A stretch of 61,985 nucleotides of DNA from a virus. Taxonomy: Duplodnaviria; Caudoviricetes. The notes below the pieces were generated by a model. The model did not search any database, was not told where the DNA came from, and saw only the letters and a list, made by a program, of their open reading frames with translations. The stretch lies in the IMG/VR virus record IMGVR_UViG_3300037483_001239, positions 1 to 61,985 of that record; one strand, 5' to 3'. Made by a program: the position numbers and the translations under genes. Positions 22,336 through 40,633 of the stretch are shown here, one piece after another. Every line of letters begins with the position of its first letter. Positions within the stretch are counted from its first letter, which is position 1.

Positions 22336-22484
22336 GGGTGTTCCCCTTTCGCTTCCGCGGCGCGGATCGTCCCGTTGGTGATCGCCCGTTCGAAGACCAG
22401 CTTGAGCTCTTCCTTCCCCCAGCCGGTCTTCACCGCGATCTCCGCGTAGAACTCCTCGCGGATGAACTTGATCAGGTCCCGCAT
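22332..22484 (-). CDS. Small hypothetical protein (50 aa)
   Basis: GGAGG RBS; GTGA overlap with queD. Confidence 0.5.
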   Translation of the reverse strand: MRDLIKFIREEFYAEIAVKTGWGKEELKLVFERAITNGTIRAAEAKGEHP

Positions 22485-22599
22485 CGACTACCTCCACCCT
22501 GTTCCAGACGGAAGACGGATCCTCCCACAGGTCGGCACCCGGACCATAGACCGAATCCGAGTACCAACCTGGAGGAGGCATGGATCCGCGTTTTGCGCC

Positions 22600-29756: not shown

Positions 29757-29770
29757 AACGTCAAGTCCTT

Positions 29771-29986
29771 TCACTTGCCCTGGGGTGGGCGCTTCTTCTT
29801 CTTCTTCGATGGGGTCGGAGGGGTCAGCACGGTGGCCTTCTTCGAGGTCCAGAAGCGAGGCTTCTTCGCCGCGCGCTTCGGCTCTCCGGCCTTCCTCCGG
29901 CAGGGTAGGCACGGCGGTGGGAAGTCCCAGCTACGCGTGCGGGACCATCGCGGTTTCTTGCAGCGAGGACAGGGGCGCTTTGTCAT
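29771..29986 (-). CDS. Small basic Zn-finger-like protein
   Basis: CPRC..CLPC, Lys-rich tail. Confidence 0.45.
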   Translation of the reverse strand: MTKRPCPRCKKPRWSRTRSWDFPPPCLPCRRKAGEPKRAAKKPRFWTSKKATVLTPPTPSKKKKKRPPQGK

Positions 29987-30312
29987 TGGTGGGTCTCTTC
30001 CTTGATCGCGTCCAGGATGGCGGCACGGACCGCGTTGAGGGAGAAGTTCCCGCATCGACAGTCAGCGGGGTGGAGCCGGTCGAGGACGCGGTCCGCGAGA
30101 GGACGAAGCTTTCTCGCAGAACACCGGATACAGAGCGTCGCGTGGTCATGATACTTGCGGATCGCGTGTACGGACATCAGTTTGGTGTGACCGCACGACA
30201 GAACGACCGCTCTCCAGCAGGGTCGATGAGATGGTGCACTCTCCGCGACGGAGACGATGTCTCGGTGGAAGTGGCCCAGGCCGTTCGGCTGTTGCATTTG
30301 CGCTTCACGCAC
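29983..30312 (-). CDS. Hypothetical Cys/His protein
   Basis: LSCGH..CIRC; GGAGG RBS. Confidence 0.5.
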   Translation of the reverse strand: MREAQMQQPNGLGHFHRDIVSVAESAPSHRPCWRAVVLSCGHTKLMSVHAIRKYHDHATLCIRCSARKLRPLADRVLDRLHPADCRCGNFSLNAVRAAILDAIKEETHQ

Positions 30313-30325
30313 GTCAGGTCCTCCC

Positions 30326-30364
30326 AAAAGAAGAAGGGGGGCGCGTTGCTTTGCACCCCCCTTC
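30326..30364 (-). terminator. Intrinsic terminator
   Basis: GAAGGGGG..CCCCCTTC stem followed by TTCTTTT on the - strand. Confidence 0.65.
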
Positions 30365-30408
30365 GGGAACGGGGTCCGATGAGTTGTTCGGGGCGACGCC
30401 GAGGGCGT

Positions 30409-30792
30409 CTACTCGATGCCCAGCTCCTTCGCCTTGGCGAGCAGGAGCTTGACCTTCTCCGCGCGCGACTGGCGGTAGGCCTTCTGCTTGGCCTTGGTCT
30501 CGGGCTTGGACCGGTAGGCCTTCATCTTCTCCTTGACCTCCGGCCGCTGGATCCGCTGCTTGTTGTACGCGGTGCGCTTGGCCTTCTGCTCGGGGGTCAG
30601 CGGGCCCTTCTTCCCGCCGCCGTGCTTGGCCCGCTGGGCCTTGATCTTCTCGAGCTGGGCCTTGACCTCCTCCGGCTTCATCGCGGCGACCTGCGCCTTG
30701 ATGCGGTCGAGCAGGGAGACCGGAGCGGTGGGAGCCTTCGCGGCTTCCTTCGCGGCCGGGGTCGGGGTCGGTTCGGGGGTTACCTTCGCCAT
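30409..30792 (-). CDS. Lys/Ala-rich basic helical protein (probably nucleic-acid binding)
   Basis: Own promoter, AGGAGGAG RBS, terminator; strongly biased codons. Confidence 0.75.
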   Translation of the reverse strand: MAKVTPEPTPTPAAKEAAKAPTAPVSLLDRIKAQVAAMKPEEVKAQLEKIKAQRAKHGGGKKGPLTPEQKAKRTAYNKQRIQRPEVKEKMKAYRSKPETKAKQKAYRQSRAEKVKLLLAKAKELGIE

Positions 30793-30845
30793 GTCGTTTC
30801 TCCTCCTGGTGCGGCGTGTCCGCACCTTCGTCCTTCAATGCTTCA

Positions 30846-30874
30846 ATGATAGGACGTTTTGAGGATGATGGCAA
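30846..30874 (-). promoter_or_regulatory. Sigma70-type promoter
   Basis: TTGCCA-17-TATCAT. Confidence 0.65.
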
Positions 30875-31082
30875 CGGACGTCGTTGAAGATTTTTCACGT
30901 CCGGGGCAATCTTCTCTAGAATCTTGAGGACGCCCAAGTATGTCCCTTTGCCCCTTCCCCTCTTCACGATCTGTCGGACTTGTTCTTTGGAGAGGCCGAA
31001 CGCCTCTCCGATACGGTTAAGTATCTCAGCAGAACGCCTACGTTGCTCTCGCAGGACCGGAGATCGAACCGCCTGCGGGCCT

Positions 31083-31445
31083 CTACGCCCCAAGGGGACT
31101 CCGCAATCGGCGCTTCGCACGGCGCCTGCGATGCCAGTTCCGAGTGTGTTCGCGGACGCGTTCACGGTTGGCCTCTTGCCAGCGTCGGAGGTAGTCGGGG
31201 CCGCCGAGACCGAGGTGGCGGTACTCCCGCTTCGTTGCTTGAGCGAGCTCGACGTTGTGGACATGCTCGTGGGAGGGATCCCCGTCCAGCCAGAACGGGA
31301 AGAGACCTTTGGGGATCGTCCCGAATTTCTGCTCCGCGAGGAGGGTGAGGACAGGCATCGTCGTTCCATCCTCGAAGACTGCCAGGCGGGAGGCCGTATA
31401 CGGGGTCTTGGGGTCGAGAGGCGGGAGATAGCCTGTAACCACCAT
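31083..31445 (-). CDS. Degenerate HNH-like protein, probably leaderless
   Basis: LLAEQKFGTIPKG..WLDGDPSHEHVHNVEL; TGaTATAAT 5 nt upstream of ATG. Confidence 0.55.
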   Translation of the reverse strand: MVVTGYLPPLDPKTPYTASRLAVFEDGTTMPVLTLLAEQKFGTIPKGLFPFWLDGDPSHEHVHNVELAQATKREYRHLGLGGPDYLRRWQEANRERVREHTRNWHRRRRAKRRLRSPLGA

Positions 31446-31509
31446 GACAAATTATATCATACGTCCTTAGTGAAATGCTAGGGACGTCATTCGTACGTCC
31501 CCTCCACCG

Positions 31510-31710
31510 TTACAGCTTCTCCGTTTCGAACTTGAAGTCGCGTCCGCACTCCCGGCAGTGGTAGTTCATCTGAAGCTTGTTCTCGAACTCTCCGAGAGAG
31601 GTCAGGACGAGGTCAGAGTGCCAGTGGGCGCGCTGGGGAGGAGGGAACGTGCAGTTGTTCCCGGTGCAGTAATCGTGGCTGTGGTTCTCGTGCGTGCACT
31701 TGCAGGGCAT
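31510..31710 (-). CDS. Small Zn-ribbon protein
   Basis: CKC..H, YHCRECG; AGGAG RBS. Confidence 0.55.
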   Translation of the reverse strand: MPCKCTHENHSHDYCTGNNCTFPPPQRAHWHSDLVLTSLGEFENKLQMNYHCRECGRDFKFETEKL

Positions 31711-31714
31711 TCTC

Positions 31715-31891
31715 CTACCCCTTCTCCCACTTGATGATCATCTCAACGCAGTCCATCATGATCTCGGAACGTAGGACCAACGCCTTGACCATCGGGCCCG
31801 GACTGACCCGTTCCATGTCGGCAGCCATCTTCGCTACCTTCACGGACTCGTCTGCGAGGTACTTTGCCGCGTCACGGGATGTCTTTGCCAT
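31715..31891 (-). CDS. Small hypothetical protein
   Basis: GAGGAGGA RBS; MAKTSRDAAKY... Confidence 0.5.
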   Translation of the reverse strand: MAKTSRDAAKYLADESVKVAKMAADMERVSPGPMVKALVLRSEIMMDCVEMIIKWEKG

Positions 31892-31892
31892 T

Positions 31893-32669
31893 CTAGTCCT
31901 CCTCCTCCTCCGGGAAGAGTCCCGGATGCATGTACGCTTTCTGTGCGACGCCGGCAGTGTTGCCGAGCTTGCCGGCTACGATCTTGGCGATGGCCTTCGG
32001 CAGCTTCGGTCCGCTGACTCCCTCGAAGGATGGGATCAGAGCCTGTGCGAGAGCGCTTGCGTACCAGGCTCGAAGGTCGTGGACCTTGATCTCGGGGTCC
32101 AGCTTCCGAAGGTACCTTAGCGTGGCATTCGCTTGATGCGGGAAAAGACGTTCCTCGCCGGCAGCGGCCCGTGCCTGAGCGTAGGCGTAGAGGACGGCGT
32201 CCTGGACCTCAAAGACTTGAGGGACGCCCTTCTTCCCGGGGAAGGCGAGGTGGAGGGTATCGGGCGCTTCCAGCCGGATGTGCTCGAGGAGTAAGCTCGA
32301 AGCCCCGTACGAGTCCTTGCTGTCGTCGAGAGCACCCTGAGGTGGATTGCCATTCCGCATTCCGGTTTGCAGGATTAGGCGAAGCGTCAGAGCCTCGGGC
32401 CGACCTTCAGCGGCGGCGGTGTCAATCTGTGAAGCAAGCTCGCCGACGCTCGCCATGACATGCCGGACCCGGTTCCACTTGTCGGCGGTGGACAACTCGC
32501 GGTGTTCCTCACTGTAGAAGTACAGGGTCTTCCCCGTTGCAGGGCTGACAGCAACGGCTTGAAGAGCCGCAGTCGGATCGACGGCGACCTGAGCGTCGAC
32601 GTACATCGGGGGAATGCGATGGGCGAGGCGCTCTTCATCTGTTGCTGGACGGAAGCCTGTCCGCTTCAC
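31893..32669 (-). CDS. DNA topoisomerase IB (bacterial/poxvirus type)
   Basis: RIPP..LQA; TGMRNGN (R), SYG, FPGKKG (K), HDLR (R), LGNT, KAY (Tyr). Confidence 0.85.
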   Translation of the reverse strand: MKRTGFRPATDEERLAHRIPPMYVDAQVAVDPTAALQAVAVSPATGKTLYFYSEEHRELSTADKWNRVRHVMASVGELASQIDTAAAEGRPEALTLRLILQTGMRNGNPPQGALDDSKDSYGASSLLLEHIRLEAPDTLHLAFPGKKGVPQVFEVQDAVLYAYAQARAAAGEERLFPHQANATLRYLRKLDPEIKVHDLRAWYASALAQALIPSFEGVSGPKLPKAIAKIVAGKLGNTAGVAQKAYMHPGLFPEEEED

Positions 32670-32980
32670 AGGGTTCCCCCCTTCAGCTTACGGCGAAGTG
32701 CGGTCGCGCGGTCTTCCCGATCCTGCTTTGTCACTCCACCAGGCATGGTCACGTTCAGCTTGGGGATGATGGACAGGTCCCAACCGAAGCGTTCAGCTTC
32801 CTCCGCCTTCCAGTCCCGGCTTCGCGTGAAGTACGCCTTCGGGTCGCGCTGGATCTTGTCCCAGCGGGACTCGCGGTTCGCGCCGTGGTACGCACGCCGC
32901 TTGGCCTTCCGGCTTTCCTCCCGGAGGAGCTCCGAGGCGAGAGCTGCACGCATGCTGTCGAGCTCTTCCTCGTCGGTCAT
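32666..32980 (-). CDS. Hypothetical protein
   Basis: ATGA/GTGA overlaps. Confidence 0.5.
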   Translation of the reverse strand: MTDEEELDSMRAALASELLREESRKAKRRAYHGANRESRWDKIQRDPKAYFTRSRDWKAEEAERFGWDLSIIPKLNVTMPGGVTKQDREDRATALRRKLKGGTL

Positions 32981-33219
32981 AGAACCCGCCACCCGAAGCG
33001 CGGACGGCGTTGGCGGATCGCGTCGCTGACCGGCTGGCCCCACTTCGTCCCGAGTTGGAACCACCGGTACATTCCGAGTGGGCATTCCCACGTCGAGGCG
33101 AGCTCGCCGTAGACGCTCGCATGGATTTTCACCAGCCGCAGGGCGTGGTCGTGGCGGGCAATCGGGCATCGTGGAGAACCGGGTTCGCGTGCGGGTGCAG
33201 GTGTTAGGTGCAGTGTCAT
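32977..33219 (-). CDS. Hypothetical protein
   Basis: GGAGG RBS; TATACT -10 box upstream at about 33243-33248. Confidence 0.5.
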   Translation of the reverse strand: MTLHLTPAPAREPGSPRCPIARHDHALRLVKIHASVYGELASTWECPLGMYRWFQLGTKWGQPVSDAIRQRRPRFGWRVL

Positions 33220-33476
33220 GCTAGGCCTACCTCCATGGTGTTAGTATACCCCAAATGCCTGGAAGACGGAACGCAGTCAGTTTGACCTCTTTTTGAGGTA
33301 CTCCGAAGAAGTATCTCTTTTTCGGGCGACGTCCGACCGGTGGAGCGTTTCGCTCCTCAGCTGCTGGCCTCGATTCGAGACAGACGACTCGTCGACTTGT
33401 CTCAAAACCGGGAATACCGGACGAGGCGACCTCGTCTCAAATCGAGAATTCGGCTGCTCCCTTTTTTGACCTGCTG

Positions 33477-33489
33477 TAAGTCGTTGATT
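33477..33489 (-). promoter_or_regulatory. IHF-consensus site upstream of the early + strand promoter
   Basis: AATCAAcgacTTA matches WATCAANNNNTTR; TATTAT -10 at 33531. Confidence 0.55.
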
Positions 33490-33929
33490 CTAAACAGACT
33501 ATTCTTCGGGCGTTTTTCTAGGGACGGACGTATTATTGAAGCGTCGGAAGGGACGGGACAACAGAGAAGCGGACGGGCGCGCGGGTCAAGCCGAGCCACG
33601 AACCGCAGACAGGGTCGGGAACGAACCAGAGCAGCGAAGCAGCTGGCCGAGGTCCCCCGAAACCGAAGACCACGCCGGGGAGAACCTCCGCCGTGGGCAG
33701 TTGTAGGGTCGGGGTGAGAAACCAGAGGCGAGCACACCGCGCGGGATACAAAACCCGCCACGGAGAACGCGCGCGAGCGCGGTTGTACGGCAACCTGAAT
33801 CGGCAACCCAATCGGATCACCGACGAGCGAAGCGGGACTTCCGTCCGCGACGCGAAGCCAACAGAACGGATGGGTGCGCCTGACTCCCCATGCCGGCAGA
33901 ACAAACATCAATCATTCTCCTAGACGTAT

Positions 33930-34003
33930 GGTGAGGGGGTGCTTCGCAGTGGCCCGTTGCCACTGTGGAACACCTAAACCACTTTGCGGGTCCCAAGTCC
34001 CGC
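33930..34003 (+). ncRNA. Twister-like ribozyme 1 (circularly permuted, type-P5)
   Basis: GGU GAGGG-P1 hairpin-UAA ACC AC-GCGGG UCCCAAGU CCCGC. Confidence 0.8.
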
Positions 34004-34018
34004 GTTCGAGGAGAATCC

Positions 34019-34291
34019 ATGGAAAACACGAATTCCGTTGCCGTTGCCGAGATCACTCTCACTGCGCACGACCTGTCCGACCGCACGGTCCGCGACGGTT
34101 CGCTTCGCGAGCGCGAGTCCTCCATCCGCGGGATGTTCGAGCGCGGCTGGTCGATCCGTACGATCGCGAAGCACTTCGACGTGTCCTACGAGTGGGCGCG
34201 CCGGATCGCGAAGAACGTCGCGTACGACTACGACGACGTCACGATCGAGGCGGCCGTCGACGAGGTCCCGAACCTGGTCGTGGCCTTCTGA
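34019..34291 (+). CDS. Small HTH protein
   Basis: GWSIRTIAKHFDVSYEWARRI; GAGGAG RBS. Confidence 0.75.
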   Translation: MENTNSVAVAEITLTAHDLSDRTVRDGSLRERESSIRGMFERGWSIRTIAKHFDVSYEWARRIAKNVAYDYDDVTIEAAVDEVPNLVVAF

Positions 34292-34295
34292 AGCT

Positions 34296-34354
34296 GGTGA
34301 GGGCGAGGGGTGCTGAAGCCCCTCGTAAACCACAGGGTGGTCCCAAGTCCACCC
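34296..34354 (+). ncRNA. Twister-like ribozyme 2
   Basis: GGUGAGGG CGAGGGG..CCCCUCG UAAACCAC A GGGUGG UCCCAAGU CCACCC. Confidence 0.85.
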
Positions 34355-34375
34355 GGTTTTCAAGGAGAGAGAAGA

Positions 34376-34588
34376 ATGGGAAACGACACGAAGAAGAGCG
34401 CGCCGGTGATGGACGCTTCCGCGGTCCGTGCGGAGTTCGCGAAGCTGCAGGCGAAGCGGGCGGCCTCGAAGGCCCGGCGGCAGACGCCGGAGTTCAAGGT
34501 CGCGCAGAAGGCGCGCAACGCCGCGAAGGCCGCGCAGCGGAGGCTCGTGCTCGCGGAGGCCGCGAAGCTGGGCTTGAAGCTCAGCTGA
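34376..34588 (+). CDS. Small basic helical protein, similar to the 30409-30792 product
   Basis: KARRQTPEFKVAQKA..LVLAEAAKLGL versus KAYRSKPETKAKQKA..LLLAKAKELGI. Confidence 0.7.
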   Translation: MGNDTKKSAPVMDASAVRAEFAKLQAKRAASKARRQTPEFKVAQKARNAAKAAQRRLVLAEAAKLGLKLS

Positions 34589-34599
34589 TCGGCGTTGCC

Positions 34600-34658
34600 G
34601 GTGAGGGAGGCGCGGACGCTCGCGCCTTAAACCACGGACCGAGTCCCAAGTCTCGGTC
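34600..34658 (+). ncRNA. Twister-like ribozyme 3
   Basis: GGUGAGGG AGGCGCG..CGCGCCU UAAACCAC G GACCGAG UCCCAAGU CUCGGUC. Confidence 0.85.
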
Positions 34659-34675
34659 AGGAGGGAGGACGGAAG

Positions 34676-34966
34676 ATGGCGAAGCCACTTCTGGTCGGAA
34701 CGTTCCGGGTGGTTTGTCAAGGCTGTCAAAAGCCTCTCGGAACGCGACTCTGCATCGCAAAGCTGAACGGGCTGATCTCTCATGGGATCTGTCCGGACTG
34801 CGAGGCGGAGCTCCGGAGGAAGTTCGGGCTGTCTCCGAGGCCTGTGAGCGCCGACGGGGTCACGACCCCGAAGGAAGAGCCGAGGAAAGAGACAGACGAG
34901 ATCGAGAGGATGCTGCGGGCCGGGAACTGGCAGGGAGCGGCGGAGGCTCTCGTTGCCGACGAGTGA
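34676..34966 (+). CDS. Zn-finger hypothetical protein
   Basis: CQGC..SHGICPDC. Confidence 0.7.
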   Translation: MAKPLLVGTFRVVCQGCQKPLGTRLCIAKLNGLISHGICPDCEAELRRKFGLSPRPVSADGVTTPKEEPRKETDEIERMLRAGNWQGAAEALVADE

Positions 34967-34968
34967 AG

Positions 34969-35027
34969 GGTGAGGGGTAAGGGCATGAGCCCTTACTAAA
35001 CCACAGCTTGGGTCCCAAGTCCTGAGC
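34969..35027 (+). ncRNA. Twister-like ribozyme 4
   Basis: GGUGAGGG GUAAGGGC..GCCCUUAC UAAACCAC A GCUUGGG UCCCAAGU CCUGAGC (G-U pairs). Confidence 0.85.
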
Positions 35028-35041
35028 AAGGAGAAGAGAGA

Positions 35042-35584
35042 ATGAGAGAGCGTTTGGCGTTTGTCATCCTGGCCGTTGTCAGCCTCGTTGCGTGTGGTGG
35101 GGGAAGCTCCGACACGCTAACGGGAGTCACCGTCGACCCGACGGAGCCTGTTGCCGTTGTCGCGTCGCCGACTCCGAGTCCGAATCCGAATCCAAATCCG
35201 ACTCCGACTCCAACCCCGCAGGCACCTCCGCCACCGAAGGCGGATCCGACTCCGACTCCGGCGCCCACCCCAGCACCCACCCCGACTCCGGCTCCACCCA
35301 CCCTGACCCTGACCTGCGAGGCCTCGGTCAGCGGGATTTCCATCACCTCGACGAGCATTCCGTGGGGGTTCACCTGGTACGCGTCGGAGTCCACCAACGT
35401 GACCGTGACCGTTGTCACGAATCCGGGAGGAGTCCAGGCGAGCCGGACCGACAGTGGTAAGGCGGTCGGTGCTGCTGTCCTGACGGGAGGTCTTTCCCCC
35501 GGGACCACGTACACCGGGAACTACACGTTCCGAGCAGGGGACGGAACCACTTGTACTGCGTCCACTCGTGCTACCACGATGTGA
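35042..35584 (+). CDS. Lipoprotein with Pro/Thr linker and beta-sandwich-like C-terminus
   Basis: Lipobox LVAC after a hydrophobic signal; PTPTP repeats. Confidence 0.75.
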   Translation: MRERLAFVILAVVSLVACGGGSSDTLTGVTVDPTEPVAVVASPTPSPNPNPNPTPTPTPQAPPPPKADPTPTPAPTPAPTPTPAPPTLTLTCEASVSGISITSTSIPWGFTWYASESTNVTVTVVTNPGGVQASRTDSGKAVGAAVLTGGLSPGTTYTGNYTFRAGDGTTCTASTRATTM

Positions 35585-35585
35585 T

Positions 35586-35642
35586 GGTGAGGGAGGCGGT
35601 CTGTGAACCGCCTTAAACCACGTGCCGGTCCCAAGTCCGGCA
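35586..35642 (+). ncRNA. Twister-like ribozyme 5
   Basis: GGUGAGGG AGGCGGU..ACCGCCU UAAACCAC G UGCCGG UCCCAAGU CCGGCA. Confidence 0.85.
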
Positions 35643-35659
35643 AGGCAAGGAGGAAGAGA

Positions 35660-35857
35660 ATGAATGACCAGGTCACACACCCATGCCGCTTCTGCGGTCA
35701 GCAGGTGTTCACCGTAGGGAAGATCAGTACTGGAGGATGGGTCTGTATCGTCCTCGGGCTGGTCGGATCCCCACTTCTCGTCGGGATCCCGTTGTTCTTC
35801 TTGGGGCTCTGCCTCAAAGAGAAGTTCGTTTCCTGCGATACCTGCGGGAGGCAGTGA
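35660..35857 (+). CDS. LITAF-like membrane Zn-ribbon protein
   Basis: CRFC - hydrophobic hairpin - CDTC. Confidence 0.65.
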   Translation: MNDQVTHPCRFCGQQVFTVGKISTGGWVCIVLGLVGSPLLVGIPLFFLGLCLKEKFVSCDTCGRQ

Positions 35858-36060
35858 TGAGGAGGCCCATCATCGCAGATGAATGCGGGGACGGCTACCA
35901 CAAGGCGTGTCCGGGAGGGTCGGTACTCGGCCGCGGTCCGGCTGCCCAAGGGCGGGCCAACATCCTCTGTGAGTGTTCGTGCCATGTCGAGGAGACGCTT
36001 CGCACGGGGAAGATCGTACACGTCGCGGACAGGGCGTCGAAGACCGGGAAGGAAGACTGA
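35857..36060 (+). CDS. Small Cys/His protein
   Basis: C..GYHKAC..CECSCH. Confidence 0.55.
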   Translation: MRRPIIADECGDGYHKACPGGSVLGRGPAAQGRANILCECSCHVEETLRTGKIVHVADRASKTGKED

Positions 36061-36130
36061 CACTCGGCGGTAGGTCGTGCGCAGCGACGCGTGACCCACC
36101 GCGGATTGTCATCTCACAAGGAGGAAGAGA

Positions 36131-36340
36131 ATGAAGGTCACGTTCACGATGGCGGAGCCCGAGGAGAAGAAGCACTCGGTGAGGTTCAACTTCGAGGCGC
36201 TCGACACCATCCCGATCACGGGGATCCTCGGGATCGAGCCGGAAGACGCGAAGAAGGCGCTCAAGAACGCGTCGTTCTACATCCCGAAGCCGATCGGCGA
36301 GCACGCGAAGCGGATCCGCGTGACGATCGAGGAGCTGTGA
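36131..36340 (+). CDS. Hypothetical protein
   Basis: AAGGAGG RBS; KKHSVRF..FYIPK..IRVTIE. Confidence 0.7.
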   Translation: MKVTFTMAEPEEKKHSVRFNFEALDTIPITGILGIEPEDAKKALKNASFYIPKPIGEHAKRIRVTIEEL

Positions 36341-36576
36341 GCTCCTCGCTGACGGCCCAAGACCGTGCTGCACTCGGCATTGTCATGGCGGTCGGCGAGT
36401 GCATTCGAGATCTCGGGAGGCCAGTCCCGAGCGGTGAGGTCTACGCCCATCTCATGGGGCACCTCACTCTCGAGTCGTACACATCCGTGATCACAGTCCT
36501 CAAGGCGAAGGGGCTGGTCGAAGAGAAGAACCACCTGCTGACATGGATCGGCCCGGTCAGCGGGTTCGCAGGCTGA
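36337..36576 (+). CDS. Small winged-helix-like protein
   Basis: GTGA overlap; VPSGEVYAHLM..LKAKGLV..HLLTW. Confidence 0.6.
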   Translation: MSSSLTAQDRAALGIVMAVGECIRDLGRPVPSGEVYAHLMGHLTLESYTSVITVLKAKGLVEEKNHLLTWIGPVSGFAG

Positions 36577-36584
36577 AAGCCGAA

Positions 36585-36661
36585 AGCAGAGGACGGTTCG
36601 GACCTGTTGAGGTGGTTACAGGCCTGAGCCGTAATGCTACAGTCCGGTTCCAAGTCCGGAC
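36585..36661 (+). ncRNA. Twister-like ribozyme 6 (divergent, covarying)
   Basis: AGCA GAGGA-P1-UAA UGCU AC A GUCCGG UUCCAAGU CCGGAC; P2 fully covaries and the purine tract/loop also change. Confidence 0.85.
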
Positions 36662-36685
36662 GCAGGCAGAAGGAGAAAGGACAGC

Positions 36686-36898
36686 ATGCCCGAGAACAAG
36701 CAGGTGACGTTCCCGTACAAGACCCTCGACATCGCGGTCAAGGACAAGTTCAAGAAGATCGGAGGCCCGGAGAAGGCCTTCGCCTTCCTCGTCAAGGGCT
36801 TCAAGAGCGTCGAGTGGCGGAGGCGAGCCGACAAGGCGGCGCGGGCCCGAGACGAGGCGGAGGACGTGGCGGTGACCGCGTCGGCGAAGAAGGCATAA
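36686..36898 (+). CDS. Small basic hypothetical protein
   Basis: AAGGAG/AAGG RBS; WRRRADKAARAR. Confidence 0.65.
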   Translation: MPENKQVTFPYKTLDIAVKDKFKKIGGPEKAFAFLVKGFKSVEWRRRADKAARARDEAEDVAVTASAKKA

Positions 36899-36976
36899 GC
36901 CGGAATCGGACCTCGGACTACTGGGCGGGTGGAGCCACTTCCAAGCCCGCCACTTCCATCCCGGTAGCCCGAGGCG

Positions 36977-37007
36977 GGAGGCGAGAGTGCGTCCTCGCTT
37001 CCTTTTT
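36977..37007 (+). terminator. Intrinsic terminator ending the early transcript
   Basis: GGAGGCGAG..CTCGCTTCC TTTTT. Confidence 0.7.
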
Positions 37008-37498
37008 CATCTGGAGGCAGGCAGGGCCGTCCGCTGCGGCGAATCCCTCTCACTCCGAGAGGAGAAGTGGACGACCATTGCTCCTTCTTCCGATCCGAGG
37101 GCGACGACTCGGAGGCCTCGATTCTTGGAACTGTTCACTGCTCCGTTCCTTCCGACGTTCCAGCAGGCCGGTCGGTCCGGGCTCTCCCCAGTGGTAGTAT
37201 CCATACACTCCGCTTTTCATCTACGTCTCCCTCCTTTTGTCCGACGTTGCCACCGCGAGGAGAAGCTCGGCCTGGATCGCATCGGCTTCGGCAATCAGCA
37301 CATCGAAGTATTGTGACAGATCCTCGTGCCGAGGTGGCGATCCCTTGACCTGACGCGCGGAGGACAGGACGATCCCGCGTAGCCGGCGCACTTCGGTGAC
37401 GAGGCGCAGTTGTGGGCCCCCTCGCGTCTCCCAGTACAGCAGTTCCGTCTCGGTGATTCGCTCGCGCGTGCCCTCCCTCCCTTCGCCCGACGTTGACG

Positions 37499-39049
37499 TC
37501 AGTCGATCCCTGCCCACGGATCCTCCGGCTTCGGACAGAATCCCCACGTCCCGGCTACGCCCCCCTGCTTCCCGATTGTCACCTGCTGGGCGATTCGGAG
37601 TCGGCGAAGCTCTTCAAGAGTCGCCTGGACCTGAGGATACCGGAGCCGTGTCGCTTCTGCAATGGCTGGGATCGAGACGTGGCCTTCATCCAAGGCCCGA
37701 ATGACGGGTCCCCGAACCTTCGGAGCGTTCGACGCCATAATCCAGCGAATCGTCTTCAGCTCGTCCTCGTCGACGAGAACCTTCCCTCGGACAAAGGCGA
37801 GACCTGATGCCAGAATCGCGAGGCGCTCGTAGAGATGGTTTGGAGTCGGACGGACCGGATCGTCTGAGGCGGAAGCCCGCGGCGCGAGGTAGGTTTGGCC
37901 CAAGGCTATGAGCTCTGCATAGTGGAGAACCTTCCGCTCCACCTCAGCGGACATCGGCGGCCAGGCCTGCGTCCTCGTCTCATACCTCGAGAATATCCAT
38001 TCGAGGTACCGGCGGACTGCCTCCCCACACCGTGCCTTGACGGGACCATACTCCGCCGCGGAGACGTATGGATCCTCCGGTTTTGCCGCCCGCAGGCGCA
38101 TGAAGAGGAGACGAGGCCCGACAGTTGCCATCGCAGCCCAGGTCTCCGTATGAAACGGGGTTGTCCCTCCGAGCCAGACGAAGGTGTAGTCCCCTTTCTT
38201 CCCCATGAGGCCGTGCGTCCCGGTCATGCGTACGATTCCACGCCCATCAACGAAATCCGGCATCTCAGAGTACATGCTCTGACGGGCTTCAGCCGTTCCT
38301 CCTCGGAAGAGAGGGCCGAGATCCGGAGTCACGAGAACCTTATGCTTGACCATCTCCGTGAGGGAAATCTCCTCTTGGTGTTCCTTTGTCACGCCTTCCC
38401 CTGCGTAGCCCGACATCATCGACGCGATCGTGAACTTCCCCATACTGAGGACGCGCTCCGCCCCCTCGAACATGTCCAGAGTCGTTCCCTTCCCTTCTCC
38501 GGACTCTCCGACGATCATCAGGGCGAGCCCTTGCGTGACATTCTCCAGGAGAAGCGTTCCGCAGCAGGCCAGCTCCGCTTCGAGAACCGGCCAGTGTCGG
38601 GGCCAGTACCGGCTTACTACCCCTCGAACCTTCTCGAGCTCCTCCGCCCTCTCCCCCAACGCCGGCGTTGCCCGCCCACTACTCTTCCGGATTGGGGGAA
38701 CCGCCGCTGCCTTCTCCCGACTCCTGATCTCCGAGATCGGAACCGCTTCGAGACGACTCCGGAGCATGTGCGAGCGCTTTATCAACGGGACCAATCCCGC
38801 GAGCGCGATCTGTGCTTTGCTTGGAAGTTTCCGGACCGGAGCGCCGGCAACCCTCAGGAGGAAATCGTACGTCCTCCCCTGCACCAGCTTCACCTCATGC
38901 GCGAACGCAATAAGCGTTCTCGAGGGAGCGAGCCCCGTTCCGACCCGCAGCGCATTCATCTCTACGAGTGCATTGTATCGGAGGGTCACCAGCTTCGCGA
39001 CGTCAGCGTCGGCATCGTCAGGCTCCAGACTCACGACGATCCCGCTCAT
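37499..39049 (-). CDS. P-loop ATPase, replicative helicase-like (MCM/AAA+-like) with C-terminal winged helix
   Basis: MIVGESGEGKGT Walker A; SIPAIAEATRL..QATLEEL. Confidence 0.65.
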   Translation of the reverse strand: MSGIVVSLEPDDADADVAKLVTLRYNALVEMNALRVGTGLAPSRTLIAFAHEVKLVQGRTYDFLLRVAGAPVRKLPSKAQIALAGLVPLIKRSHMLRSRLEAVPISEIRSREKAAAVPPIRKSSGRATPALGERAEELEKVRGVVSRYWPRHWPVLEAELACCGTLLLENVTQGLALMIVGESGEGKGTTLDMFEGAERVLSMGKFTIASMMSGYAGEGVTKEHQEEISLTEMVKHKVLVTPDLGPLFRGGTAEARQSMYSEMPDFVDGRGIVRMTGTHGLMGKKGDYTFVWLGGTTPFHTETWAAMATVGPRLLFMRLRAAKPEDPYVSAAEYGPVKARCGEAVRRYLEWIFSRYETRTQAWPPMSAEVERKVLHYAELIALGQTYLAPRASASDDPVRPTPNHLYERLAILASGLAFVRGKVLVDEDELKTIRWIMASNAPKVRGPVIRALDEGHVSIPAIAEATRLRYPQVQATLEELRRLRIAQQVTIGKQGGVAGTWGFCPKPEDPWAGID

Positions 39050-39399
39050 GCGGTCCGCCGTCGGAGCCCGGCTTCCGGCTCCCCTTCAATCGGCCGAGCC
39101 GGACAGGCTCCAGAACACCCGGCATGCTGCGGGCAGGGAAGAGGAACGGAGTTCGGATCCCGGTGAAGCCCCTCCGGCCAGAACCCTTCCTTGAGCATCT
39201 TCTTCATCTGCCTCCGCATGGCAGGAGTAAGAGAGTGTAGGGTCCAGTCCCCCTCCACCATCGCGGTGAGGCCGTCCCAGACTTCCCCCGCACGAAGCGC
39301 TCGAACGCGAAGCCCCCCTGGAAACGTATCATACAGGAAGCCCGGCCGGAGCCTCTCCCTGACAATCACATTCCGACACCCCGCACGCTCCTTAATCAA
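39046..39399 (-). CDS. Hypothetical protein
   Basis: AGGAGG RBS region; ATGA overlap with the helicase-like gene; CPQH..C..C. Confidence 0.5.
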   Translation of the reverse strand: MIKERAGCRNVIVRERLRPGFLYDTFPGGLRVRALRAGEVWDGLTAMVEGDWTLHSLTPAMRRQMKKMLKEGFWPEGLHRDPNSVPLPCPQHAGCSGACPARPIEGEPEAGLRRRTA

Positions 39400-39455
39400 G
39401 GCATAGCCTCCTATCGCAGGCTCTTATTTTACATTGCTTTTCATTGTGAGGAAAC

Positions 39456-39483
39456 GGACGTCTTCTGGACGTCTTTAGGACGT
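39456..39483. repeat. Three GGACGT repeats at 11-bp spacing in an AT-rich intergenic region
   Basis: GGACGT at 39456, 39467 and 39478. Confidence 0.65.
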
Positions 39484-39593
39484 TTCTCCATAACGTTATG
39501 ACTATGTTATATGTATATCCACACCCAAAGTTCGCCTCCGCAATGGGTGTTGCTTCCGATATAGAATGTGAATCTGCGTTGTAACTCGTTTAG

Positions 39594-39606
39594 AATCAAC
39601 AACTTA
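39594..39606 (+). promoter_or_regulatory. IHF-consensus site upstream of the terminase genes
   Basis: AATCAAcaacTTA. Confidence 0.55.
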
Positions 39607-40144
39607 CAAAGATCAGGGTAAAGAACCACTCCTATATTGTTGAAAACAAACGATCTTCGGGGCGTCCGAAAGACGTCTGGGACAATCCTCTTCGAAAGCT
39701 CGAGACATCCTCCGACCCGAGGCTCGACACCGCCCCCTCGCAAACACGCAGTCGAAGCCCGCGAAGCCCGCGAAGCCCACGACGTCCTCACATACTTTCC
39801 CTTCCTCCGTCAATGATCCGGGTTGACATCGGGTCCTTTCTACATCATAATTGGAACAACAAACGAGATGGCTCCTCTCCGATCCTTCCCGACGCTGCCC
39901 GTTCAATCCTCCGCTCGGAGTCTGCGATCCGAGACTCGCTCTCGTGCCGAGGCCAGCCTCGTCTTCTTCGCTCGGGCTGTTCTCGGGCTGCGCCGGCTCT
40001 CGCCGGATCGTCTCCTGGAAGTCCAAGACGGAGCACAGCCTCGGCTTCGTTCTGAGGAGCGAGCGCTAGAAGCCTGGCTTGCCCTCCGGAAGGGGACTCT
40101 CCCTCCGGAGCTGCGGTGGACGGTTGGAGGATCGGAGGACGGCA

Positions 40145-40633
40145 GTGCTGTCGCCTGAGTCGACGACGACCGTCCTCCCCTCGGAGAAGGGTGGGAGTCT
40201 CTCTCGAGCGCAACGGAACGAGGCCCGTCTCTTCGCGTTGACGATTCTCCGAGATCCGCTGTACCAGCAAGGGCTTCTCGCTGCGGCACGAAAGCGGGAG
40301 CTGGCTCCGGCCGTCGAGATCGCGATCATGCATTACGGATGGGGCAAGCCCCCGGACAAGGTCGAGGTCGGAGCTCCCGGTGCCTTCGATCTGGAGGATC
40401 TCCCGGCGGCTGCCCTTGCGGATCGTGCGGAGACGCTCGCGAGGACTCTCCGTCTCGTCCCTCGTCCTCCACAGGAGGAGGATCGGGCGGCGGCGTCCGC
40501 CCAGACTGACGAGGCTCTTGCCCGGACGAAGGAACGGGCGGATGCCCGGGCCGAAGCCGACGCCGAGGCCTCCCGTATTCGCAAGGTCATGAATCTCGTC
40601 ACACGAGAAGAGATCGGGGAGCTCGGAGCATGA
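40145..40633 (+). CDS. Terminase small subunit (putative)
   Basis: Directly upstream of TerL; HYGWGKPPDKVEV. Confidence 0.6.
   Translation: MLSPESTTTVLPSEKGGSLSRAQRNEARLFALTILRDPLYQQGLLAAARKRELAPAVEIAIMHYGWGKPPDKVEVGAPGAFDLEDLPAAALADRAETLARTLRLVPRPPQEEDRAAASAQTDEALARTKERADARAEADAEASRIRKVMNLVTREEIGELGA

What the first reader, a model, noticed from the sequence alone, without database searches (positions are those of the whole stretch)
33930..36661. Six tandem twister-like self-cleaving ribozymes punctuate the phage early operon, each ahead of a gene
Seen in sequence: six intergenic elements (33930-34003, 34296-34354, 34600-34658, 34969-35027, 35586-35642, 36585-36661) share one architecture: GGU-GAGGG, variable hairpin, UAA-ACC-AC, then a variable stem closing the loop UCCCAAGU. 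Stem sequences differ between copies but always pair, including G-U pairs, which points to RNA-level selection. Copy 6 replaces the GGU/ACC pairing with AGCA/UGCU and has GAGGA with loop UUCCAAGU. Established knowledge: this matches the twister core as I recall it from the rice twister (UAA at L1, P2, a P4 loop UCCCAAGC, GAGGG, two pseudoknots), here with P1 closed by a loop and the ends at the P5 position. Inference: the phage uses autocatalytic cleavage at U|AA to process its early mRNA, as T7 uses RNase III sites, leaving leaders of 43-53 nt. Caveat: P2 is only 3 bp in copies 1-5.
Basis: partly seen in the sequence, partly recalled or inferred. Interest (0 to 1): 0.95.

Follow-up and report, generated by a model that had tools for sequence, protein, structure and literature searches.

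The report
Six twister ribozymes punctuate phage operon
A 3-kb operon of an uncultivated tailed phage carries six self-cleaving twister ribozymes, one in almost every gap between its small genes, which most likely cut the long transcript into single-gene messages. The ribozyme class is known, but this regular layout is a clean natural system for asking what twisters are for.

Summary
Rfam's Twister-P5 model (RF02684, cut-off 37.6 bits) hits all six elements: five at 44.4-52.0 bits and copy 1 at 33.3 bits. Nothing else in the 61,985-bp phage record matches. P1, P2, P4 and both pseudoknots are kept by compensatory changes in 34 viral and 119 distinct metagenomic relatives. The catalytic A and G are present in all six copies.

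Each ribozyme fills the spacer between a stop codon and the next Shine-Dalgarno site. This layout recurs in 140 of 153 related elements, against 13% of control positions. Same-strand arrays of 2-10 copies occur in other viral and metagenome contigs.

My best reading is constitutive self-cleavage at U|A. This would turn the polycistronic RNA into single- or two-gene mRNAs, each ending in the P1 hairpin and starting with a 5'-OH, the P4 hairpin and a free ribosome-binding site.

Cleavage, timing ("early") and the physiological effect are untested, and no RNA data exist. Multi-ribozyme operons in prophages are already known for hammerheads. I file this as a new member of a known kind, of moderate interest.

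The parts
33930..34003 (+). Twister-P5 ribozyme copy 1, with a long two-part P1. Predicted cleavage is between 33975 and 33976.
   Evidence: Rfam RF02684 at 33.3 bits, below the 37.6 cut-off; E 3.3e-4 in 5.5 kb and 3.7e-3 in the whole window. My own model R1 gives 45.0 bits, E 1.7e-8. The fold shows P2, P1 and P4.
34296..34354 (+). Twister-P5 ribozyme copy 2. Predicted cleavage is between 34326 and 34327.
   Evidence: Rfam 51.3 bits; R1 61.4 bits; fold.
34600..34658 (+). Twister-P5 ribozyme copy 3. Predicted cleavage is between 34628 and 34629.
   Evidence: Rfam 48.6 bits; R1 67.1 bits; fold.
34969..35027 (+). Twister-P5 ribozyme copy 4. Predicted cleavage is between 34997 and 34998.
   Evidence: Rfam 45.8 bits; R1 71.9 bits; fold.
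35586..35642 (+). Twister-P5 ribozyme copy 5. Predicted cleavage is between 35614 and 35615.
   Evidence: Rfam 52.0 bits; R1 68.0 bits; fold.
36585..36661 (+). Twister-P5 ribozyme copy 6. It has the canonical 4-bp P2 (AGCA/UGCU), a compensated T1 (GGA:UCC) and a long P1. Predicted cleavage is between 36632 and 36633.
   Evidence: Rfam 44.4 bits. R1, which was built on 3-bp-P2 forms, aligns only part of it, at 21.1 bits. Fold.
34019..34291 (+). Gene g1, 90 aa, after copy 1.
   Evidence: ORF with GAGGAG upstream. Weak HTH_23 match at 21.8 bits, below its cut-off. 54% identical to an ORF that also follows a twister in relative G001.
34376..34588 (+). Gene g2, 70 aa, after copy 2.
   Evidence: No Pfam or PHROGs family. 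69% identical to a twister-preceded ORF in G001.
34676..34966 (+). Gene g3, 96 aa, Cys-rich, after copy 3.
   Evidence: ORF listed; no family.
35042..35584 (+). Gene g4, 180 aa, after copy 4. It has a lipoprotein-like N-terminus (my reading of the translation) and a Pro/Thr-rich linker.
   Evidence: translation; only a low-complexity Pfam match.
35660..36060 (+). Genes g5 (35660-35857, 65 aa) and g5b (35857-36060, 67 aa) after copy 5. They are joined by an ATGA overlap with no spacer.
   Evidence: g5 has a weak zf-LITAF-like match at 22.0 bits, below its cut-off.
36054..36114 (+). A 24-bp imperfect hairpin in the only spacer of the operon that lacks a twister, upstream of g6.
   Evidence: Fold -35.3 kcal/mol, z -4.33, with 0 of 200 shuffles as stable. 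No Rfam or R1 match. The g6 homologue in G001 is preceded by a twister instead.
36131..36576 (+). Genes g6 (36131-36340, 69 aa) and g7 (36337-36576, 79 aa, GTGA overlap).
   Evidence: g6 is 49% identical to a G001 ORF. No family beyond a PHROGs match at E 6.8e-4 with no passing stretch.
36686..36898 (+). Gene g8, 70 aa, after copy 6.
   Evidence: 67% identical to a G001 ORF. No family.
36976..37013 (+). Terminator-like hairpin plus T-run, the likely 3' end of the transcription unit.
   Evidence: Consensus scan: 10-pair stem followed by TTTTTCATCTG. It is a pattern match only.
33609..33661 (+). Conserved block in the roughly 500-nt non-coding stretch upstream of copy 1. It may be a leader or promoter element; its function is unknown.
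   Evidence: Near-identical in G001 while the flanks diverge. A hairpin is predicted, with a 6-nt insertion in G001 at its apex. The pattern was found in no other IMG/VR contig. No Rfam match.

Best explanation
The six elements are genuine type-P5 twister ribozymes embedded in one + strand transcription unit, roughly 33.3-37.0 kb, of a tailed phage.

**Proposed mechanism.**
1. As RNA polymerase passes each spacer, the 57-77-nt element folds into P2, the P1 hairpin, the P4 hairpin and pseudoknots T1 and T2.
2. It then cuts itself between the U and the first A of UAA.
3. This turns the polycistronic RNA into seven pieces: a 5' leader, four single-gene mRNAs (g1, g2, g3, g4), one piece carrying g5 to g7, and g8.

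**Resulting ends.** Each upstream piece ends in the G+C-rich P1 hairpin with a 2',3'-cyclic phosphate. Each downstream piece begins with 5'-OH-AAACCAC, the P4 hairpin, and 0-9 nt later an unpaired Shine-Dalgarno site.

**Likely consequence.** Each cistron gets its own protected ends and a context-independent ribosome-binding site without any host RNase. This works like T7's RNase III sites, or like the engineered RiboJ-plus-RNase III framing of genes.

**Shown:** family membership by covariance model, fold conservation including both pseudoknots, presence of the catalytic residues, and the stop-ribozyme-SD layout with its recurrence.

**Inferred:** cleavage itself, its completeness, and the effects on stability and translation.
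For: 1. **Model hits.** Rfam RF02684 hits all six copies, five of them above the gathering score. Nothing else in the window reaches E <= 1 apart from two sub-threshold matches at E > 1, and the family rings in 0 of 14 control genomes.
2. **Covariation in viral relatives.** On 34 viral relatives, 96.7% of cells pair, against 69.8% in shuffles (0 of 500 reach the observed value) and at most 54.5% when partners are slid. T1 and T2 were not part of the model and are 100% paired. At T1, GC changes to UA in 4 rows and to AU in 2. At T2, the pairs are AU 26, GC 6, CG 1 and GU 1.
3. **Covariation in metagenomes.** On 119 distinct metagenomic rows, 98.2% of cells pair against 69.5%. All three T1 pairs change on both sides, and T2 is AU 103, GC 15, GU 1.
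4. **Copy 6.** Its own GGA:UCC supplies the compensated third T1 pair.
5. **Catalytic residues.** PMC11662667 (passages) defines them as the A after the scissile bond, the next A, and the first G of the GAGGG strand. All are present in 6 of 6 copies.
6. **Activity of natural twisters.** The same paper reports about 94% of roughly 2,600 natural twisters active in vitro, and no dependence on P2 length or deletions (abstract; section 32).
7. **Downstream layout.** 140 of 153 distinct elements have an SD, a start codon and an ORF of at least 40 aa within 45 nt of the P4 end (median 18.5 nt to the start). The figure is 409 of 3,060 random same-strand positions.
8. **Upstream layout.** 134 of 145 elements have an open frame of at least 60 codons closing within 30 nt upstream or inside the first 8 nt, against 484 of 2,900 controls. 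49 of those 134 rest on the ribozyme's own TGA and are ambiguous.
9. **Arrays.** All copies of a locus lie on one strand in 25 of 25 multi-copy metagenome loci, with a median spacing of 431 nt.
10. **Processed leaders.** In folds of the predicted leaders, P4 forms in 6 of 6. The SD is unpaired in the centroid of 4, while copies 1 and 3 show 2-3 pairs inside it.
11. **Spacer swap.** Upstream of the g6 homologue, relative G001 has a twister where the window has a 24-bp hairpin. This fits an interchangeable processing or stabilising role.
12. **Precedent.** Clustered hammerheads flank genes in prophages and cut roughly 2-kb transcripts in vitro. A halovirus hammerhead lies 13 nt before a start codon, and the mapped 5' end of the transcript is within 3 nt of its cleavage site (PMC3088659 passages).
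Against: - **No cleavage assay and no RNA data exist for this phage.**
- **P2 length.** Copies 1-5 have a 3-bp P2, whereas the consensus has four Watson-Crick pairs. A structural study cautioned that adding or deleting P2 pairs might disturb the active site (PMC5408937 passage). In 5 of 34 viral rows even the third P2 pair is a C/A mismatch.
- **Copy 1 is below Rfam's cut-off.**
- **Interference from translation.** Stop codons lie 1-11 nt before copies 2-6, so a terminating ribosome would cover the 5' strand of the ribozyme. Folding must therefore compete with translation of the upstream gene.
- **The effect on stability could go the other way.** A 5'-OH can mark an mRNA for decay rather than protect it, as in the glmS ribozyme precedent cited in PMC6765202 section 13.
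- **Dispensable in related phages.** The two longest contigs with a 49-56% identical terminase (87% and 49% complete) have no twister.
Confidence: 0.8

Rival explanations
1. Cleavage is conditional, not constitutive. The ribozymes would act as switches whose folding depends on translation of the upstream gene, on ion conditions or on a factor, so that the phage tunes the ratio or timing of the small proteins.
For: Upstream stop codons lie 1-11 nt before copies 2-6. In relatives they often overlap the first bases of the ribozyme: the 669-aa helicase ORF of G003 ends in the TGA of GGUGAGGG. Ribosome occupancy could therefore block P2 and T1. Perreault et al. raised regulated cleavage for slower phage hammerheads (PMC3088659 passage).
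Against: There is no extra conserved domain or aptamer-like insertion. P1 inserts are variable in sequence and length. The core is the standard fast-cleaving twister core. No P5 or alternative pairing with the flanks exceeds chance: 3.12 against 3.00 +/- 0.13, with 43 of 200 controls as high.
Confidence: 0.1
2. The ribozymes serve to shorten, not lengthen, message life. Cleavage would expose 5'-OH ends that host 5'-exonuclease attacks, as with glmS, giving a quick shut-off or a decreasing gradient along the operon.
For: The glmS precedent of cleavage followed by RNase degradation (PMC6765202 section 13). Hosts of this kind may carry RNase J, which I recall from general knowledge and did not test.
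Against: Every gene, including the first, gets a ribozyme. Each processed 5' end carries a 5-7-bp G+C-rich hairpin 8-10 nt from the end, and each 3' end carries a strong hairpin. In engineered systems such hairpins raise half-life (PMC6993053 passage). A pure decay signal would not need to sit at a fixed short distance from the SD.
Confidence: 0.07
3. The ribozymes mark the boundaries of selfish or mobile gene cassettes, or produce circular RNAs. They would not serve phage gene expression as such.
For: The distribution is patchy. Terminase relatives lack them. Window and G001 share g1, g2, g6 and g8 but differ in which genes carry a ribozyme. The downstream genes are overwhelmingly small ORFans: at most 19 of 131 have any Pfam match, and the median length is 98 aa.
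Against: No integrase, reverse transcriptase or repeat flanks the units. Copies are not recent duplicates, since their stems differ throughout. Covariation follows pairing within one ribozyme. Hybrids of neighbouring halves would pair fully in only 3 of 9 cases in G003.
Confidence: 0.05
4. The elements are non-catalytic structured RNAs, such as protein-binding or antitermination sites, that merely resemble twister.
For: Cleavage is untested. P2 is one pair shorter than the consensus in copies 1-5.
Against: They score up to 52 bits, and relatives up to 62 bits, with a curated model. They keep the catalytic A, the second A and the G in 6 of 6 copies. They covary in exactly the two pseudoknots that build the twister active site. 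About 94% of natural twisters tested cleave (PMC11662667 abstract).
Confidence: 0.03

Closest known systems
Type-P5 twister ribozyme (Rfam RF02684; class described by Roth et al. 2014, a paper I could not read here)
   Same: The permutation is the same: P1 is closed and the ends lie at the P5 position. P1, P2 and P4 and pseudoknots T1 and T2 are present. So are the L1 and L4 consensus GAGGG, UAA and GUCCCAAG, and the catalytic A and G. Model scores are 33-52 bits against a cut-off of 37.6.
   Different: Copies 1-5 and most relatives have a 3-bp P2: the pair next to L1 is deleted in the model alignment. Their T2 is AC:GU instead of the consensus GC:GC. P4 is 5-7 bp rather than the 3 pairs of the model. 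There is no P5 helix. I could not see the Rfam seed, so I cannot say whether this sub-form is already in it.
Clustered hammerhead ribozymes flanking genes in prophages (Perreault et al. 2011, PMC3088659)
   Same: Several self-cleaving ribozymes on one strand flank single genes or short gene blocks in phage DNA. Processing of long phage transcripts into gene-length mRNAs was proposed, and cleavage of roughly 2-kb constructs was shown in vitro (passages).
   Different: The ribozyme class differs. That paper tested 'tandem' and triple arrangements, whereas here there are six in 2.7 kb, and 10 in relative G003. Here the position is fixed relative to the stop codon and the SD.
RNase III processing sites of the phage T7 early transcript (my recall; no call)
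   Same: Works alike: intercistronic cuts leave messages with terminal hairpins.
   Different: T7 depends on a host protein enzyme and yields 5'-phosphate and 3'-OH ends. Here the RNA would cut itself and yield 5'-OH and 2',3'-cyclic phosphate ends. The one twister-less spacer of this operon carries a 24-bp hairpin that could be such a site, but this is untested.
Engineered ribozyme insulators (RiboJ, VtmoJ), with each gene of an operon framed by a ribozyme and an RNase III site (PMC6993053 passages)
   Same: A self-cleaving ribozyme sits directly upstream of the RBS. After cleavage a hairpin remains at the new 5' end and leaves the RBS exposed. The aim is context-independent, more stable expression.
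   Different: Those parts are synthetic and hammerhead-derived (the derivation is my recall). This is a natural twister array of unknown effect.
Self-cleaving ribozymes in UTRs and intergenic regions of fungal and plant RNA viruses that are needed for translation initiation (PMC13725137 passages)
   Same: The ribozyme fills a short intergenic UTR and cuts just upstream of the next ORF. One hammerhead spans a 66-nt spacer and cuts 7 nt before ORF2.
   Different: Those are eukaryotic RNA viruses with cap- and scanning-related translation. Here it is a DNA phage with SD-led initiation. That paper set hits in DNA bacteriophages aside as already described.
Tornado circular-RNA system (PMC7324948 passage)
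   Same: An RNA flanked by twisters acquires a 5'-OH and a 3' phosphate end, which are the substrates of the ligase RtcB. Every internal unit of this operon would have such ends.
   Different: Tornado is engineered, with end-pairing stems. No end pairing, no RtcB gene among the ORFs I scanned, and no circular product is known here.

Membership tests
Twister ribozyme, type P5 (Rfam RF02684) | Score at or above the curated gathering score (37.6 bits) of the family covariance model | tested here: met
   Five of six copies score 44.4-52.0 bits. Copy 1 scores 33.3 bits, below the cut-off, at E 3.3e-4 in 5.5 kb. It reaches 45.0 bits with my model built from relatives.
Twister ribozyme, type P5 (Rfam RF02684) | Helices P1, P2 and P4 supported by covariation | tested here: met
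   P1 is 100% and 98.6% paired, P2 94.1% and 99.1%, and P4 92.1% and 95.8%, on 34 and 119 distinct rows respectively. 18 of 21 and 19 of 21 pairs change on both sides, and 0 of 500 shuffles reach the observed values. The alignments were fitted to these nested helices, so they lean towards them.
Twister ribozyme, type P5 (Rfam RF02684) | Two pseudoknots: T1 between L1 GGG and L4 CCC, and T2 between the L2 dinucleotide and the L4 dinucleotide | tested here: met
   The pseudoknots were not in the model used for alignment, yet both are 100% paired in both sets. In the metagenomic set all three T1 pairs change on both sides. T2 is AU/GC/CG/GU = 26/6/1/1 in the viral set and AU/GC/GU = 103/15/1 in the metagenomic set. 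Window copy 6 has GGA:UCC.
Twister ribozyme, type P5 (Rfam RF02684) | Catalytic and conserved loop residues: A after the scissile bond (general acid), the second A, and the first G of the 3' L1 strand (general base) | tested here: met
   Residue roles come from PMC11662667. N|AA and G-AGG(G/A) are present in 6 of 6 window copies. G4 and A5 of the motif are invariant in the 31-row alignment.
Twister ribozyme, type P5 (Rfam RF02684) | P2 of four Watson-Crick pairs, as in the bioinformatic consensus and the crystal structures (PMC5408937) | tested here: not met
   Copies 1-5 have 3 pairs (GGU/ACC); only copy 6 has 4. The shorter form is conserved in relatives. P2 length and deletions did not lower cleavage in about 1,900 characterised natural twisters (PMC11662667 section 32). 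I therefore treat this as a tolerated variant, not a disqualifier. Its activity still needs a direct assay.
Twister ribozyme, type P5 (Rfam RF02684) | Circular permutation with P1 closed by a loop and the RNA ends at the P5 position | tested here: met
   The order P2(3')-L1-P1 hairpin-L1-P2(5')-L2-P4 appears in all model alignments and folds. No P5 helix forms between the flanks.
Twister ribozyme, type P5 (Rfam RF02684) | Site-specific self-cleavage yielding 2',3'-cyclic phosphate and 5'-OH ends | not testable with these tools
   No RNA holder was listed for this sequence, and I ran no read laying. Testing it needs in vitro transcription or end-specific RNA-seq.
Ribozyme-punctuated phage/prophage transcription units (Perreault et al. 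2011, PMC3088659) | Several self-cleaving ribozymes on one strand flank single genes or short gene blocks in phage DNA | tested here: met
   The window is a tailed-phage record with terminase, portal, tape measure and DNA polymerase genes. Six ribozymes on the + strand separate nine small ORFs. The same holds in G001, G003 and 25 metagenome loci.
Ribozyme-punctuated phage/prophage transcription units (Perreault et al. 2011, PMC3088659) | The long transcript is cut into the expected fragments | not testable with these tools
   This was shown for three hammerhead clusters in that paper. There are no data for this operon.

The most novel reading that the evidence does not exclude
The internal units of the operon are released with a 5'-OH and a 2',3'-cyclic phosphate. 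These are the substrates of RtcB-type ligases and of the reverse twister reaction.

In copies 1-5 the 3' half of one ribozyme and the 5' half of the next share identical P2 and T1 strands. The two ends of a single-gene unit could therefore reassemble into a hybrid twister and be joined.

The phage would then make circular, exonuclease-proof, SD-bearing mRNAs: a natural counterpart of the engineered Tornado system.
Probability: 0.04. Interest if true: 0.9.

Novelty: new member of a known kind. Interest (0 to 1): 0.55.

Why it matters
**The open question.** What twister ribozymes do in bacteria and phages is still unsettled. Reviews say their roles are "largely elusive" and are inferred only from genomic context (PMC6765202 section 13; PMC5408937 section 13).

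**What this operon offers.** Its 2.7-kb ribozyme stretch holds six copies, and each sits between a stop codon and the next ribosome-binding site. The layout recurs in other viral and metagenome contigs: 140 of 153 related elements keep the ribozyme-to-SD arrangement. It can therefore be cloned as it stands, and each copy can be inactivated by one base change. That makes the processing, stability and translation-insulation hypotheses directly testable.

**Other uses.**
- It supplies dozens of natural, mutually divergent twisters with a built-in 5' hairpin and an exposed RBS. These could serve as orthogonal insulator parts.
- It documents a conserved sub-form with a 3-bp P2 and an A-U/C-G T2, which bears on structural claims about P2 length.

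**Limits.** It does not change what is known about the ribozyme class. The idea of ribozyme-processed phage operons dates from 2011.

Tried and rejected
**Searches that added nothing.**
- The Rfam scan of the whole window at E <= 5 found only the six twisters, plus two chance-level matches (narK at 25.5 bits, MEG3_2 at 24.9 bits). There is no other ribozyme class in the window.
- A seventh copy: none was found with Rfam or with my model R1.
- The hairpin before g6 (36054-36114) is not a decayed twister. It has no model match and no convincing alignment to the G001 twister.
- Megablast of 30000-42000 against the phage collection gave no match.
- No tRNA or tmRNA genes.

**Structural ideas tested and dropped.**
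- P5 helix: pairing between the 10 nt on either side is no better than with mismatched partners (3.12 against 3.00 +/- 0.13).
- Neighbour-hybrid ribozymes as a conserved requirement: rejected. Hybrids pair fully in 4 of 4 window, 4 of 5 G001, 3 of 9 G003, 1 of 2 G002, 1 of 1 G004 and 0 of 1 G005 junctions. Pairing within one ribozyme at T1 and T2 is complete in all 34.

**Expression data.** The look-up of sequencing runs listed no RNA holder: two DNA sediment-metagenome runs, one of them the possible source. This says nothing about expression.

**Host.** The exact motif occurs on two MAG contigs titled Chloroflexi/Chloroflexota. Rfam finds one copy in each genome, and R1 finds a second copy nearby. 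This is a weak hint only.

**Function of the small genes.** Pfam and PHROGs gave only sub-threshold hints.

**Literature.** Seven of my searches bore on this question. They found no description of homotypic twister arrays in phage operons. The original twister paper and two follow-ups are not held (PMC3867598, PMC4509812, PMC5785228), and supplements are closed. The arrays may be shown there.

**Rows left out before counts.**
- Alignment A1 used 31 of the hits then known. I left out window copies 1 and 6, the long-P1 G001 copy, and exact duplicates.
- A3 excludes locus L008, which is the same DNA as L019. It also excludes the two hits above E 1e-6: the partial copy 6 alignment and L019:5271.
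- A7 keeps hits at E <= 1e-5.
- collapsed 176 rows to 153 distinct elements with at least 120 nt downstream.
- One search used the 145 elements with at least 229 nt upstream.
- One search kept 131 distinct complete ORFs.
- Metagenome loci were not de-duplicated by contig. Some repeat IMG/VR contigs.

Full report
**What the window is.** The window is one whole IMG/VR virus record of 61,985 bp. It is linear, about 95% complete by CheckV, and about 62% G+C. It is a tailed phage.
- PHROGs finds a tape-measure protein (2587-5064, +), large terminase (40630-42156, +), portal (42156-43532, +) and head-morphogenesis protein (43529-46198, +).
- On the minus strand there is a replication and nucleotide block. 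It holds DNA polymerase (15479-18214), a thymidylate-synthase-like gene, Sak4-like annealing protein, ATP-dependent ligase and QueC/QueD/QueE-like genes.
- The finding lies in a 3-kb plus-strand unit wedged between that block and another minus-strand block (about 37.0-39.4 kb).

**The observation.**
- The composite motif of copies 1-5 occurs 5 times, against 0.00 expected in 100 shuffles.
- The P4 loop word GTYCCAAGTC occurs 6 times, against 0.39 expected.
- I recounted the cleavage-site coordinates (after T33975, 34326, 34628, 34997, 35614, 36632) and the leader lengths (43-53 nt). They are correct.

**What the elements are.** Rfam's Twister-P5 model (RF02684, gathering score 37.6) matches all six end to end.
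- Five copies score 52.0, 51.3, 48.6, 45.8 and 44.4 bits. Copy 1, which has a long two-part P1, scores 33.3 bits (E 3.3e-4 in a 5.5-kb search, 3.7e-3 in the whole window).
- No other family comes near in the window, and the family rings in 0 of 14 control genomes.
- Minimum-energy folds of all six give P2, P1 and P4.
- The model alignments show two departures from the consensus in copies 1-5. The P2 pair next to L1 is missing, leaving 3 bp (GGU/ACC). The T2 pseudoknot is AC:GU instead of GC:GC.
- Copy 6 has the canonical 4-bp P2 and a T1 of GGA:UCC.

**Relatives and covariation.** An exact-pattern scan found the copy 1-5 form at three scales:
- in 12 stretches of 11 other IMG/VR contigs;
- in 2 MAG contigs titled Chloroflexi/Chloroflexota;
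- in 89 metagenome stretches, of which 80 loci were returned.

Rfam confirmed 23 Twister-P5 hits in the viral loci. I built a covariance model (R1) from 31 of them, with nested helices only, and re-aligned all hits.
- On 34 viral rows, 96.7% of cells pair, against 69.8% in shuffles (0 of 500) and at most 54.5% with slid partners.
- On 119 distinct metagenomic rows, 98.2% pair, against 69.5%.
- The alignments are fitted to P1, P2 and P4, so those counts lean towards the structure. The two pseudoknots were not in the model and are therefore the cleaner test. T1 and T2 are 100% paired in both sets. All three T1 pairs change on both sides (GC to CG, UA, AU), and T2 switches between AU and GC.
- In the 10-copy array of G003, neighbouring ribozymes carry different, internally compensated P2/T1/T2 combinations.
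- The residues that PMC11662667 defines as general acid, second A and general base are present in all six window copies.

I conclude that these are twister ribozymes by every sequence and structure criterion. Self-cleavage itself is inferred. The inference rests on that paper's finding that about 94% of natural twisters tested cleave, and that P2 length or deletions do not matter (abstract; section 32). An earlier structural caution about P2 length (PMC5408937) remains the main reason to want a direct assay.

**Layout in the operon.** The unit has nine ORFs of 65-180 aa. Almost all lack any family.
- Two junctions are overlaps (ATGA between g5 and g5b, GTGA between g6 and g7).
- Of the seven spacers, counting the one ahead of g1, six hold a twister. 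The seventh, ahead of g6, holds a 24-bp imperfect hairpin (-35.3 kcal/mol, z -4.3).
- Copies 2-6 start 1-11 nt after the preceding stop. The SD begins 0-9 nt after the P4 stem.
- A terminator-like hairpin with a T-run follows g8.
- Upstream of copy 1 lies about 500 nt without a convincing gene. It contains a block (33609-33661) that is nearly identical in relative G001.

**The layout is general.**
- Over all distinct related elements with enough flank, 140 of 153 are followed within 45 nt by an SD, a start codon and an ORF of at least 40 aa (median 18.5 nt from P4 to the start). Only 13% of random same-strand positions are.
- 134 of 145 are preceded by a closing open frame within 30 nt, or overlapping the first bases, against 17% of controls. 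49 of these rest on the ribozyme's own TGA and are ambiguous.
- In at least one clear case the 669-aa SNF2 helicase of G003 ends in that TGA.

**Arrays elsewhere.**
- G001 (62,011 bp) is a relative of the window. Its g1, g2, g6 and g8 homologues are 49-69% identical. It has six twisters.
- G003 (58,155 bp) has nine over Rfam's cut-off and one at 37.0 bits, within 6.8 kb of small ORFans plus the helicase.
- G002, G004 and G005 have 3, 2 and 2.
- Of 80 metagenome loci, 25 have 2-8 copies. All copies of a locus lie on one strand, with a median spacing of 431 nt.
- In 12 array loci all 63 Rfam gathering hits are Twister-P5, so the arrays are homotypic. One viral contig, L017, pairs a twister with a type II hammerhead 1.3 kb away on the same strand.
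- The arrays are not a lineage trait. The two longest contigs with a 49-56% identical terminase have none. Window and G001 differ in which homologous genes carry a ribozyme. Ahead of the g6 homologue, G001 has a twister where the window has the hairpin.
- The 131 distinct downstream proteins are small (median 98 aa). At most 19 have any Pfam match, among them AAA ATPases, an SNF2 helicase and several DUFs.

**How it most likely works.** Each element would cut itself at U|A soon after it is transcribed.
- The upstream RNA keeps GGUGAGGG plus the G+C-rich P1 hairpin and a cyclic phosphate.
- The downstream RNA starts 5'-OH-AAACCAC, then the P4 hairpin, then the SD. In folds of the predicted leaders P4 forms in 6 of 6. 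The SD is free in the centroid of 4, and partly paired (2-3 pairs) in copies 1 and 3.
- Even the first gene is cut off from its roughly 500-nt leader, so the purpose is more than separating cistrons. Every message gets the same kind of 5' end.
- This is the design that engineers reach with RiboJ-type ribozymes. Those carry a hairpin added to expose the RBS, which also lengthens half-life, and are combined with RNase III sites around each gene (PMC6993053). It works like T7's RNase III processing (my recall).
- It fits the proposal made for hammerhead clusters in prophages, where cleavage of long transcripts was shown in vitro (PMC3088659).
- It also parallels the recent finding that intergenic ribozymes of RNA viruses are needed for translation of the next ORF (PMC13725137).
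- The steps from 'is a twister' to 'cleaves', 'stabilises' and 'insulates' are inference.

**Rivals.**
- Conditional cleavage coupled to upstream translation is plausible, because the stop codons abut the ribozymes. However, no extra conserved domain or alternative pairing was found.
- A decay-promoting role, as with glmS, is hard to square with hairpins at both new ends and the fixed distance to the SD.
- A selfish-cassette or circular-RNA role is not excluded. In copies 1-5 the halves of neighbouring ribozymes are interchangeable. But covariation follows pairing within one ribozyme, and only 3 of 9 neighbour hybrids would pair in G003.
- A non-catalytic look-alike is very unlikely, given the pseudoknot covariation.

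**Novelty.** The ribozyme class, its presence near phage genes, and the clustering of self-cleaving ribozymes are in print (PMC6765202 section 13; PMC3088659). PMC11662667 section 35 notes that a virus was among the organisms in the original twister prediction. Seven of my searches bore on this question. I found no description of homotypic arrays of type-P5 twisters filling the stop-to-SD spacers of phage operons. The founding papers and all supplements were out of reach, so I cannot claim it is unreported. I rate this a new member of a known kind. Its value lies in a regular, testable layout that bears on the unsettled question of what twisters do.

**Limits.** There are no expression data, no host and no cleavage assay. 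'Early' is unproven. Metagenome loci were not de-duplicated by contig.

Noticed in passing
window 36054-36114 (+): A 24-bp imperfect hairpin (-35.3 kcal/mol, z -4.3) fills the only spacer of the operon without a twister and overlaps the g5b stop codon. Its shape recalls RNase III sites. Ahead of the g6 homologue in relative G001, the spacer is a twister instead.
   Followed up: partly
window 33609-33661 (+), within the gene-poor stretch 33380-33930: A block of about 50 nt is nearly identical in G001 while its flanks diverge. A hairpin is predicted, and G001 has a 6-nt insertion at its apex. There is no Rfam match, and the pattern occurs in no other IMG/VR contig. ATCATTCTCCTAG, just before the first twister, is also conserved in both phages.
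   Followed up: partly
window 21213-21872, 21886-22581, 29037-29912 (all -): QueE-like, QueD-like and QueC-like genes lie in the replication block. The phage may therefore put a 7-deazaguanine base into its DNA.
   Followed up: no
window 39400-39850: An A+T-rich, gene-free stretch lies between the minus-strand block and the packaging genes, in a genome of 62% G+C. It is probably a divergent promoter or origin region.
   Followed up: no
window 37499-39049 (-): A 516-aa ORF with no Pfam or PHROGs family lies convergent to the ribozyme operon.
   Followed up: no
window 8344-9672 (+): A radical-SAM-domain protein (PHROGs E 3.4e-13) sits among the tail-region genes.
   Followed up: no
L017 3862-3930 (-) and 5254-5306 (-): Another viral contig carries a type II hammerhead (42.6 bits) and a type-P5 twister on the same strand, 1.3 kb apart. 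This is a mixed-class pair, unlike the homotypic arrays.
   Followed up: no
L007 6260-6330 (-); L007 9480-9533 and L013 73-126: A skipping-rope RNA (Rfam RF02924, 45.2 bits) lies in a 44-kb viral contig. That contig's single twister lies inside its direct terminal repeat, so it is read at both ends.
   Followed up: no
L019 (G003) 8947-8954 and many metagenome loci: The TGA inside the ribozyme's GGUGAGGG serves as the stop codon of the upstream gene. The clear case is the 669-aa SNF2 helicase. Coding sequence and ribozyme therefore overlap by up to 5 nt.
   Followed up: partly
window 36920-36950 (+): Just after g8 there is a hairpin GGGCGGG...CCCGCC whose loop contains CACUUCCAAG, an echo of the twister L4 word. 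No model matches it.
   Followed up: no
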